NCBI GenBank assembly: GCA_964593285.1
Contig: CAZQHZ010000008.1
Location: 1 to 58,741, forward strand
Reading direction: 5' to 3'
Origin: an uncultured Methanosarcinales archaeon
GTDB taxonomy: Archaea > Nanobdellota > Nanobdellia > Woesearchaeales > DSVV01
Length of the DNA stretch: 58,741 bases
The position numbers were made by a program, and so were the translations under genes. Position 1 is the first letter of the stretch. Each line of letters opens with the position of its first letter. Positions 390-5,098 of this stretch are shown here, in pieces. The notes below the pieces were generated by a model. That model was not told where the DNA came from. It was given only the letters and a program-made list of their open reading frames with translations, and searched no databases.

Positions 390-1473
<1,084 letters not shown>

Positions 1474-3681: not shown

Positions 3682-3793
3682 TTTTAATATATTAAAATAA
3701 TATTTATTTATAAATATTTATATTTTATTTTTATTTACTTTTAAAATAATTTAAAAATTTTTAATAAAAAATAGTTTATTTAAAAATAAATTA

Positions 3794-3810
3794 CGAAACA
3801 TTTAAATATA
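3794..3810 (+). promoter_or_regulatory. archaeal BRE/TATA promoter of archaellin 1
   Basis: CGAAA-CA-TTTAAATATA about 80 nt upstream of the start; RBS GTGAGGT at 3876-3882. Confidence 0.55.
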
Positions 3811-3866
3811 AGTTTATTCTTAGTATAGTAATAAGTATATTTTTAGTTGTTTATGGCTATTAAAAT

Positions 3867-4550
3867 ATAAAAAAAGTGAGGTTGATAAAAAATGGTTTTA
3901 AAACAAAAAAAAGCTGAAATGGGCGTTGGTACATTAATTGTATTTATCGCTATGCTTTTAGTTGCAGCAGTTGCTGCAGGTGTATTAATACAAACAGTAG
4001 GATCCTTGCAGGAAAAATCTCTTGCAACAGGACAGCAAGCAAGAACACAAATTTCAACAAATGCTAGAGTAATTGAAGTTTCTGCAACAGATGGAAGAGC
4101 AGGCAATTTAAGTGATTTTGAGCAGTTAATGAAATTATCACCAGGATCTGATCCAATTAAATTAGATCAAGTAATTTTCACATTTAATACTCAAAATACT
4201 TCATCTACACTAAAATATAGAGAAGGTGCAAATTGTTCAAGAAATAACGAAACAGATGAAGCTAATAATCTAACAGGTTATTATACAGATCAAACAACTG
4301 GCGAAGGTTTTTTCACAGTAATTTATGAACAAGAAGGAAGTAATCATGTTCCTGGTAATTTACAAAGAGGAGACATTATAAGATTATGTTATGCAGGTGT
4401 TGGAAATATTGGAGAAGATGAAATGGTTAGATTAAACTTTATTCCAAGAATTGGAACTCCAACACTAACACAATTTGCAACTCCAGATGTAATTACAACA
4501 CAAAGAGTTTATTTATATCCATAAATTATAAATAACCTCACTTTTTTTAT
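3867..4550. repeat. perfect 17-bp inverted repeat enclosing archaellin 1
   Basis: ATAAAAAAAGTGAGGTT (3867-3883) and AACCTCACTTTTTTTAT (4534-4550) are exact reverse complements. Confidence 0.85.
3892..4524 (+). CDS. flaB: archaellin (archaeal flagellin) 1
   Basis: class III signal KKA/EMGVGTLIVFIAMLLVAAVAAGVLIQT; LSPGSDPIKL motif; C-terminal TPDVITTQRVYLYP. Confidence 0.93.
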   Translation: MVLKQKKAEMGVGTLIVFIAMLLVAAVAAGVLIQTVGSLQEKSLATGQQARTQISTNARVIEVSATDGRAGNLSDFEQLMKLSPGSDPIKLDQVIFTFNTQNTSSTLKYREGANCSRNNETDEANNLTGYYTDQTTGEGFFTVIYEQEGSNHVPGNLQRGDIIRLCYAGVGNIGEDEMVRLNFIPRIGTPTLTQFATPDVITTQRVYLYP

Positions 4551-4624
4551 TTTTTATATCTTTTTTCTAAAATTGTTTTAAATATTAAAAATATTTATAT
4601 AGATATTTAACCTATCATAAAAAT

Positions 4625-5098
4625 ATGTACAGATATGAAAAATTATTAGAAGATGCAAAAAAAGATTTAAAAATAGCCGATCATATGATTAATATTACTT
4701 ATAAACTAGTAAACGATCCAAAAATGTTATTGTCAATAACACATAGATTACTAAATACATTAACTAACATAATGACTTCAATACTTTTATATGAAAGACA
4801 CTACAAAAAGATACCAAAATTCAATGAAACTTTTGATTCGATTTTTAATCTTTTCAAAGCAAGATGTGAACGAAGATACAATATAGACAAAGAATATTTA
4901 CAAATAATTCAAGAAATTAAAAACATTATAAATGAACATAAAAAAAGTCCGATTGTATTTTCAAAAGAAAATAAATTAATAATTTGCTCAGATGATTATA
5001 GATTAAAAAAAATTTCAATTGAAAATATCAAAAAGTATATAAATAAAATAAAATTATTTCATAATGAAGCTGAACGGATGGTGAAAATTAATGGATGA
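4625..5098 (+). CDS. hypothetical helical protein (HEPN-like N-terminus)
   Basis: 157 aa ORF overlapping the next gene; EDAKKDLKIADHM resembles the next ORF's N-terminus. Confidence 0.75.
   Translation: MYRYEKLLEDAKKDLKIADHMINITYKLVNDPKMLLSITHRLLNTLTNIMTSILLYERHYKKIPKFNETFDSIFNLFKARCERRYNIDKEYLQIIQEIKNIINEHKKSPIVFSKENKLIICSDDYRLKKISIENIKKYINKIKLFHNEAERMVKING

What the first reader, a model, noticed from the sequence alone, without database searches (positions are those of the whole stretch)
3867..4550. Archaellin gene enclosed by a perfect 17-bp inverted repeat that covers its ribosome-binding site
Seen: ATAAAAAAAGTGAGGTT (containing the SD GTGAGGT, 8 nt before the ATG) is exactly complementary to AACCTCACTTTTTTTAT, 9 nt after the stop; the BRE/TATA (3794-3810) lies outside the repeat. 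Inference: either an invertible segment that flips the archaellin away from its promoter (ON/OFF phase variation), or 3'UTR-5'UTR pairing that closes the mRNA and masks the RBS once transcription ends. I know of neither mechanism for archaellins.
Basis: partly seen in the sequence, partly recalled or inferred. Interest (0 to 1): 0.75.

Follow-up and report, generated by a model that had tools for sequence, protein, structure and literature searches.

The report
Archaellin mRNA zips its ends shut
A surface-filament gene of a small-genome archaeon is flanked by two complementary 17-base stretches whose letters change together in related species, so the two ends of its messenger RNA likely pair up and would hide the ribosome landing site, a control known from a few bacterial genes that my searches did not find described in archaea.

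Summary
The repeat is real: 3867-3883 and 4534-4550 are a perfect 17-bp complement, the strongest 5'/3' pairing of 1047 genes in this genome. It is conserved. The same hisS-divergent archaellin in four genomes of a second genus keeps a 15-22-bp helix over the Shine-Dalgarno (SD) with different letters. Over 16 core columns in five genomes, 75 of 80 cells are Watson-Crick, 4 are G-U, none A-C, and 5 columns change on both sides, while four-fold sites are only 36-58% identical. A sixth gene has a 13-bp helix of other sequence. The other 188 of 194 archaellin genes lack it. G-U wobbles, unconserved arm sequence and one orientation in 5 of 5 genomes favour RNA pairing over DNA inversion; reads did not cover the arms. 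Best reading: a long-range 5'UTR-3'UTR helix (about -23 kcal/mol against -10 for SD:16S) that likely closes the finished mRNA and limits initiation, like S. aureus icaR. No RNA data exist here, so function is inferred. The scan earlier noted a similar clamp on other DNA (e1-6606912). Verdict: new variant of a known kind, interest 0.6.

The parts
3794..3808 (+). BRE + TATA-box-like promoter element, outside the repeat
   Evidence: Sequence; conserved in the orthologous loci; archaeal consensus recalled
3823..3840 (+). Conserved GTATA-N7-GTATA motif over the predicted transcription start (about 3830); operator or core-promoter element, untested
   Evidence: Promoter+motif pattern found once each in 6 of 28 family genomes, always before an archaellin, 0 control hits; start site inferred from TATA spacing (recalled)
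3867..3884 (+). 5' arm in the predicted 5' UTR: A-run plus the GAGGU half of the SD (3884 pairs as G-U)
3878..3886 (+). Shine-Dalgarno GAGG(U)UGAU, 8 bp with the genome's own 16S tail with one bulged base (-9.7 kcal/mol)
3892..4524 (+). Archaellin-family gene, 210 aa, one of five paralogues; divergent from hisS
4533..4550 (+). 3' arm in the predicted 3' UTR: anti-SD (ACCUC) plus the first U7 tract (4542-4548)
4542..4566 (+). Terminator-like U tracts (U7 at 4542, U6 at 4550, U6 at 4561); predicted transcript end lies in or after them
   Evidence: U-tract termination from PMC8716108 (passages)

Best explanation
The two arms are a conserved, covarying complement that likely forms a long-range RNA helix between the 5' and 3' untranslated ends of this one archaellin mRNA, and the helix would bury the Shine-Dalgarno sequence and so limit translation initiation. 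Shown: complementarity, covariation, strand bias to G-U, position over the SD and over the first terminator U tract. Predicted by folding: the helix dominates once the transcript reaches about 4539-4541. Inferred: (1) ribosomes load while the gene is still being transcribed, because the 3' arm does not yet exist; (2) when the 3' arm is made, it outcompetes the 16S anti-SD and closes the mRNA; (3) a ribosome at the stop codon sits next to the 3' arm (it starts 7-12 nt after the stop), so traffic may hold the ends apart and a lull would let them close. The likely net effect is a cap on the output per mRNA, which sets the dose of this paralogue relative to the other four.
For: Best 5'/3' helix of 1047 genes; no other gene's ends pair as well with either arm (next -18.6 and -18.2). 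Six of 194 archaellin genes score -24.8 or lower, next -19.0, 0.06 expected. Five are the hisS-divergent locus sharing one promoter motif (G000, G022, G025, G018, G010). Core -11..+4: 75 WC, 4 G-U, 0 A-C, 1 terminal mismatch of 80 cells; 5 columns changed on both sides. Arms within the second genus are 81-100% identical while four-fold sites are 36-58%. Cross-pairing shows three sequence-specific types: G000 self -26.1 vs -9 to -12 with others; G021 self -25.1 vs -9 to -12. RNAalifold finds the helix unprompted on four full-length loci. Full-length fold has it in MFE and centroid; P(GAGG paired to 3' UTR) is 0.00 for ends up to 4536, 0.84 at 4539, 1.00 from 4541, and 1.00 at 20-70 C. Duplex -22 to -30 vs SD:16S -8.7 to -9.7 kcal/mol. 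Archaeal transcripts end after U tracts (PMC8716108 passages), which puts the anti-SD inside the transcript. Distal anti-SD sequences repress translation in B. subtilis (PMC12697547) and in icaR (PMC3868564).
Against: No RNA evidence: transcript ends, expression and in vivo pairing are all untested. The compensatory changes rest on few events: four of the five double changes separate G000 from one genus, so they may be one branch, and I registered the arms on GAGG/CCTY by hand (MAFFT misregistered G000's 3' arm by 3 columns). The G-U bias is 4 cells against 0. The feature is patchy: hisS-divergent archaellins of G014, G015, G021 and G024 (another promoter type) lack it, as do the G015 and G024 loci syntenic with the G021 helix gene and the G014 gene with the same promoter motif. 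Equilibrium folding ignores ribosomes. Archaellins are among the most expressed Woesearchaeota genes in one lake (PMC11606122 passages), which fits a repressive role poorly, though which paralogues is unknown. No RNase III was found in G000, so the icaR decay step is not transferable.
Confidence: 0.6

Rival explanations
1. The RNA helix is real but serves high output: it holds stop codon and start site together, a terminating ribosome opens it, and the released 30S reinitiates on the same message (closed-loop translation without proteins).
For: The 3' arm starts 7-12 nt after the stop in all six genes, near the edge of a terminating ribosome (footprint size recalled). In four genomes a hairpin over the last codons and stop abuts the long helix. 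Termination-reinitiation occurs in archaea (PMC6728339 abstract). Archaellins are highly expressed in Woesearchaeota.
Against: That distance is also where U-tract terminators lie. The stop-codon hairpin ranks only 3, 11, 20, 28 of 160 in those four and 73 and 112 in G021 and G000. A tether need not cover the SD, yet all six do. Distal anti-SDs were inhibitory where tested.
Confidence: 0.14
2. The RNA helix is real but acts mainly on mRNA stability or 3'-end formation, shielding the 3' end from the exosome or hiding the first U tract from the termination nuclease, as the hbs interaction modulates cleavage.
For: The 3' arm includes the first U tract in five of six genes. G000 has two RNase PH genes and a 635-aa beta-CASP protein of aCPSF1 size. 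B. subtilis hbs has a 14-bp 5'/3' helix that restricts cleavage.
Against: The helix is centred on the SD in all six cases, including one of independent sequence; the hbs helix lies elsewhere in the leader.
Confidence: 0.13
3. The arms are recombination sites: an invertible segment (phase variation) or split halves of an integron-type attC site.
For: Perfect inverted repeat in G000 with the promoter outside. Tyrosine recombinases exist elsewhere in the genome. Earlier scan notes report integron-like cassettes in this window. An archaellin switch is known in Haloarcula marismortui (passage; no DNA inversion named there).
Against: Arm sequence differs between genera; G-U cells are mismatches in DNA (3 of 5 genomes); same orientation to hisS in 5 of 5; no serine recombinase found (0 hits); none adjacent; GTTRRRY/RYYYAAC cores absent in 6 of 6 (consensus recalled); no target-site duplication.
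Confidence: 0.05
4. By-product: A-rich leaders and U-rich terminators pair by composition, and the match was inherited or is a protein-binding site present twice.
For: Nine of the 17 bases are A/T run; the genome is 22.8% GC; only one branch carries most double changes.
Against: 188 other archaellin genes with similar SDs and U tracts lack it; cross-pairing is sequence-specific; arms are far more conserved than four-fold sites; a protein site would not track base-for-base between two copies nor favour G-U.
Confidence: 0.08

Closest known systems
Staphylococcus aureus icaR mRNA 5'/3'-UTR pairing (PMC3868564; abstract and discussion section 14 read)
   Same: 3' UTR anti-SD pairs with the SD of the same mRNA, forms only after transcription of the 3' end, blocks initiation.
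   Different: icaR has a long 3' UTR (391 nt, PMC7821165 passage) with a short UCCCC core and RNase III cleavage; here a 13-22-bp unbroken helix starts 7-12 nt after the stop, overlaps the terminator U tract, is archaeal, RNase III was not found, and it covaries between genera (icaR's motif is not kept in S. epidermidis).
Bacillus subtilis hbs mRNA long-range interaction (PMC5737220; abstract and section 16 read)
   Same: Fully complementary 14-nt 5'/3' UTR helix just upstream of the terminator, confirmed by compensatory mutants.
   Different: It overlaps an RNase Y site and acts on decay; here the helix covers the SD itself.
Distal anti-SD sequences in B. subtilis (PMC12697547; abstract and discussion read)
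   Same: Anti-SD sequences hundreds of nt downstream pair with the RBS, inhibit initiation and promote decay.
   Different: Synthetic 8-mers, depleted in natural genes; here a long natural element under apparent selection to be kept.
Haloferax volcanii 5'/3'-UTR functional interaction (PMC2636863; abstract, passages, discussion read)
   Same: Archaeal translational control that needs both UTRs.
   Different: No base-pairing mechanism is given there (proteins were proposed); here direct pairing over an SD is visible in sequence.
Type I toxin mRNAs with 5'-3' fold-back (hok; named in PMC3868564, otherwise recalled)
   Same: Full-length mRNA is closed by end-to-end pairing.
   Different: No toxin or antisense RNA seen here; those RNAs are silent from birth and opened by 3' trimming.

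Membership tests
Archaellin family (PF01917) | Pfam score above cut-off with type-IV-pilin-like N-terminus | tested here: met
   94.4 bits vs 29.5; TIGR02537 29.8 vs 20; NF006325 127.5 is below its 210 cut-off
Subunit of a rotating archaellum | Motor genes (ArlI ATPase and partners) in the genome | tested here: inconclusive
   Three assembly ATPases score 139-270 bits against ArlI cut-off 550; no FlaD/E domain; ArlH and ArlJ not searched; genome 95.9% complete
cis 5'/3'-UTR SD-masking helix (icaR type) | 3' UTR sequence complementary to own SD | tested here: met
cis 5'/3'-UTR SD-masking helix (icaR type) | Pairing maintained by compensatory change | tested here: met
   5 double-change columns, 4 G-U, 0 A-C in 80 cells; RNAalifold
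cis 5'/3'-UTR SD-masking helix (icaR type) | Both arms inside one transcript | not testable with these tools
   No RNA run listed; inferred from promoter and U-tract positions
cis 5'/3'-UTR SD-masking helix (icaR type) | Pairing lowers translation | not testable with these tools
   Energies only
cis 5'/3'-UTR SD-masking helix (icaR type) | RNase III cleavage of the duplex | tested here: not met
   PF00636 not found in G000
Invertible DNA switch (hin/fim type) | Both orientations in populations | tested here: inconclusive
   One orientation in 5 of 5 assemblies; laid contigs do not span the arms
Invertible DNA switch (hin/fim type) | Conserved recombinase site and linked invertase | tested here: not met
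   Arms 56-69% identical between genera; no PF00239 hit; PF00589 genes on other contigs
Integron cassette with attC | GTTRRRY and RYYYAAC cores flanking the gene (recalled) | tested here: not met
   Absent in 6 of 6
Bulge-helix-bulge processing stem (circular RNA) | 3-nt bulge, 4-bp helix, 3-nt bulge (recalled) | tested here: not met
   No such motif in co-folds of the ends of six genes, by inspection
Described Rfam RNA family | Covariance-model match | tested here: not met
   0 matches at E up to 5 over 3770-4650

The most novel reading that the evidence does not exclude
A gene translationally coupled to itself: the end-to-end helix parks the SD beside the stop codon, each terminating ribosome unzips it and reinitiates on the same message, so each mRNA is either in a running closed loop or locked shut. 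This would be a protein-free prokaryotic closed-loop mRNA, evolved at least twice on archaellins of this family and perhaps also on ftsZ, i.e. on polymer-forming proteins.
Probability: 0.14. Interest if true: 0.88.

Novelty: new variant of a known kind. Interest (0 to 1): 0.6.

Why it matters
Few natural long-range 5'/3' mRNA pairings are reported even in bacteria (three cited in PMC12697547), and the archaeal case of UTR cooperation has no known mechanism (PMC2636863). This is a compact, covariation-backed candidate in archaea: two 17-nt arms that can be moved onto a reporter and tested by three mutants. It would also be a post-transcriptional control for one member of a multi-paralogue archaellin family, and it shows where to look for more (genome-wide self versus non-self end pairing). 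My paper searches for archaellin or archaeal UTR base pairing (open-access library only, two returned nothing probably because of how primes are printed) found no description of it.

Tried and rejected
Reads: no RNA holder listed. Logan contigs of four DNA runs laid on the gene gave no cover of the 5' arm and no contig spanning both arms; no strand-change joint was listed, which proves nothing. The upstream intergenic flank stayed unchecked in reads. Metagenome scan with the six-protein alignment returned 80 loci, mostly distant haloarchaeal-type genes; none of the 34 complete ones had the helix and the close ones were mostly cut before the stop. Genome-contig scan gave two loci, one identical to G018 and counted once (its record title says Methanosarcinales, at odds with its family placement). 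A stop-codon + anti-SD pattern over 401 genomes was too loose (145 hit, many control hits) and was not used. Protein tree was only the quick version and groups paralogues by genome, so orthology was taken from synteny and promoter. One search misregistered G010; corrected. Broken genes in G004, G008, G018 could not be matched end to end; no strong pairing among 15 combinations. htpX, a G000 hit at -16.5, is not conserved (0 of 11 scored orthologues reach -15). An antisense mini-ORF behind the minus-strand SD: its ATG is absent in G025 (sequence), rejected. Mobile element: single copy, no target duplication. Rfam and bacterial terminator scans: nothing. Two scripts died on limits and were rerun lighter. 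No look-alike earlier notes by place in relatives. No supplements were read.

Full report
Setting. The window is contig C8 of G000 (1.18 Mb, 38 contigs, 22.8% GC, 95.9% complete). No tool named the organism; size, an archaeal 16S and gene content suggest a DPANN archaeon, likely Woesearchaeota (my inference). ORF 3892-4524 is an archaellin-family protein, one of five paralogues. hisS is divergent upstream; the co-directional gene downstream starts at 4625.

Observation. 3867-3883 and 4534-4550 are exact complements over 17 bp, extended by one G-U inward. In a 23% GC genome length alone is weak evidence: 14 of 149,864 random upstream/downstream pairs reach 17. With stacking energies on 30-nt upstream and 35-nt downstream windows, this gene is the best of 1047 (-26.1; next -19.5), and 3 of 1,095,162 non-self pairs reach -24. 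The other four paralogues score -4 to -9.

Relatives. The protein matched 19 of 61 relatives, 11 of 28 family genomes at 1e-40 and 41 of 401 order genomes at 1e-38. I fetched loci for most listed matches and 80 metagenome loci. After dropping 16 genes without 5' end, 71 without 3' end, 24 without N-terminus, 4 short and 21 duplicates, 194 genes remained (159 from genomes, 34 metagenomic, 1 named record). Six score -24.8 to -33.8; the next is -19.0; 0.06 were expected at -24. Five are G000 and all four genomes of genus g11 (G022, G025, G018, G010): each divergent from hisS in the same orientation and sharing a promoter motif found in only 6 of 28 family genomes. The sixth, G021, is at another locus and has a 13-bp helix of unrelated sequence that runs up to the ATG. 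Against a universal role: hisS-divergent archaellins in G014, G015, G021 and G024 have another promoter type and no helix; the G014 gene with the shared promoter motif scores -9.2; the G015 and G024 genes syntenic with the G021 helix gene score -6.0 and -12.7.

Covariation. Registered on GAGG and CCTY, 16 core columns in five genomes give 75 Watson-Crick cells, 4 G-U, 0 A-C and one terminal mismatch; columns -11, -10, -4, -2 and -1 change on both sides. Arms are 56-69% identical between G000 and g11 and 81-100% within g11, while four-fold sites of the gene are 36-58% identical. Swapping ends between types drops the score to -9 to -12. RNAalifold on four full-length g11 loci returns the helix without guidance. 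Caveats: four double changes lie on one branch; the register was set by motif; G-U counts are small.

RNA or DNA. G-U cells inside the helix (G010 at -9, G018 at 0) pair in the sense RNA but are mismatches in DNA. A recombinase site should keep its sequence; these arms keep only complementarity. Orientation is the same in 5 of 5. No serine recombinase was found; tyrosine recombinases lie on other contigs. attC cores are absent. The read test failed for lack of cover at the arms, so inversion is unlikely but not directly excluded.

Is the helix in the transcript? A TATA-like box at 3801-3808 puts the start near 3830 (spacing recalled), 37 nt before the 5' arm. U tracts begin at 4542, 4550 and 4561, and archaeal 3' ends follow U tracts (PMC8716108, passages); G000 has a beta-CASP protein of aCPSF1 size. 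The anti-SD lies before the first tract. Folding 3833-4570 gives the helix in MFE and centroid. The SD is paired to the 3' end with probability 0.00 for ends up to 4536, 0.84 at 4539 and 1.00 from 4541. No RNA run was available.

Mechanism. The duplex (-22 to -30 kcal/mol) far exceeds SD:16S pairing (-8.7 to -9.7). It can form only after the last 20 nt are made. I infer that ribosomes load on the nascent RNA and that the finished RNA closes unless traffic at the stop codon, 7-12 nt from the 3' arm, keeps it open. Where distal anti-SDs were tested they repressed (icaR; synthetic 8-mers), so I take a cap on output as most likely (0.6). The same geometry allows closed-loop reinitiation (0.14; termination-reinitiation is shown in archaea, abstract) or a stability/termination role as in hbs (0.13). 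Together RNA pairing has about 0.87. A hairpin over the stop codon abuts the helix in g11 but ranks 3-28 of 160 there and 112 in G000: inconclusive.

Wider lead. ftsZ is G000's second hit. Among 19 of 30 fetched family ftsZ loci that have a GGGG SD and both ends, own ends pair better than other genera's (permutation, one per genus, p 0.004 and 0.0005 for two window sizes); with composition kept, 6 of 19 reach p below 0.05. Helices are short, G000's has a competing local hairpin, and kin are not independent. A lead only. htpX failed the same test.

Known systems. It works like icaR (SD masked by own 3' UTR) but fails the RNase III feature and is archaeal; it resembles hbs in length and position but covers the SD. 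Haloferax UTR cooperation is the only archaeal parallel found and names no base pairing. A review of bacterial 3' UTRs lists icaR, hbs and RNAIII-type cases and notes they are poorly conserved (passages). Whether the protein builds a rotating archaellum is open: no ATPase passes the ArlI cut-off. An earlier scan note (e1-6606912) reports a similar clamp on twin secreted-protein genes in another genome; I did not check it and do not count it as support.

Verdict. Observation confirmed; RNA reading supported, inversion not. New variant of a known kind; interest 0.6, held down by the lack of RNA data and the few independent changes.

Noticed in passing
G000:C11:20274-21341 and loci L301-L326: ftsZ orthologues of this family often carry a short anti-SD in the 3' UTR that matches their own SD flank (strongest in G021, G007, G013, G015); weak statistical support.
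   Followed up: partly
L301-L330, 30-70 nt after the ftsZ stop: A conserved non-coding element (pyrimidine-rich block followed by a C-run) downstream of ftsZ in many genera; in genus g13 a hairpin with a CCCU loop precedes it. No Rfam match at gathering score in three loci.
   Followed up: partly
window 3823-3840: GTATA-N7-GTATA motif over the predicted start site, conserved in many archaellin promoters of the family and order; candidate operator.
   Followed up: partly
G000:C1:47866, C4:9762, C14:10199: Five archaellin genes but no assembly ATPase above the ArlI cut-off and no FlaD/E domain; the filaments may be pilus-type rather than rotating.
   Followed up: partly
window about 29521; also C1, C3, C5, C9, C11: A dispersed intergenic repeat of at least 45 bases, six near-identical copies seen in the genome; may relate to the cassette ends in earlier notes.
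   Followed up: no
G000:C9:23767-45696: A 6581-aa ORF, a 193-aa tyrosine-recombinase-like gene and the 431-aa archaellin lie in a row on one strand.
   Followed up: no
window 3892-4524 vs L004, L005, L010, L032: G000's three short archaellins lack a roughly 100-aa central insert present in family relatives, and paralogues group by genome in the quick tree, suggesting gene conversion.
   Followed up: no
window 3878-3886: The SD has a one-base bulge (GAGG-N-UGAU) in all five syntenic loci; in g11 the UGAU half stays mostly outside the helix and could act as a toehold.
   Followed up: no
L001/L002: A record titled uncultured Methanosarcinales is identical at this locus to family genome G018; the title looks wrong.
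   Followed up: no
window 408-760: Poly-A-rich, 63-bp-periodic low-complexity region with Ns, likely a K/T-rich ORF with assembly trouble.
   Followed up: no
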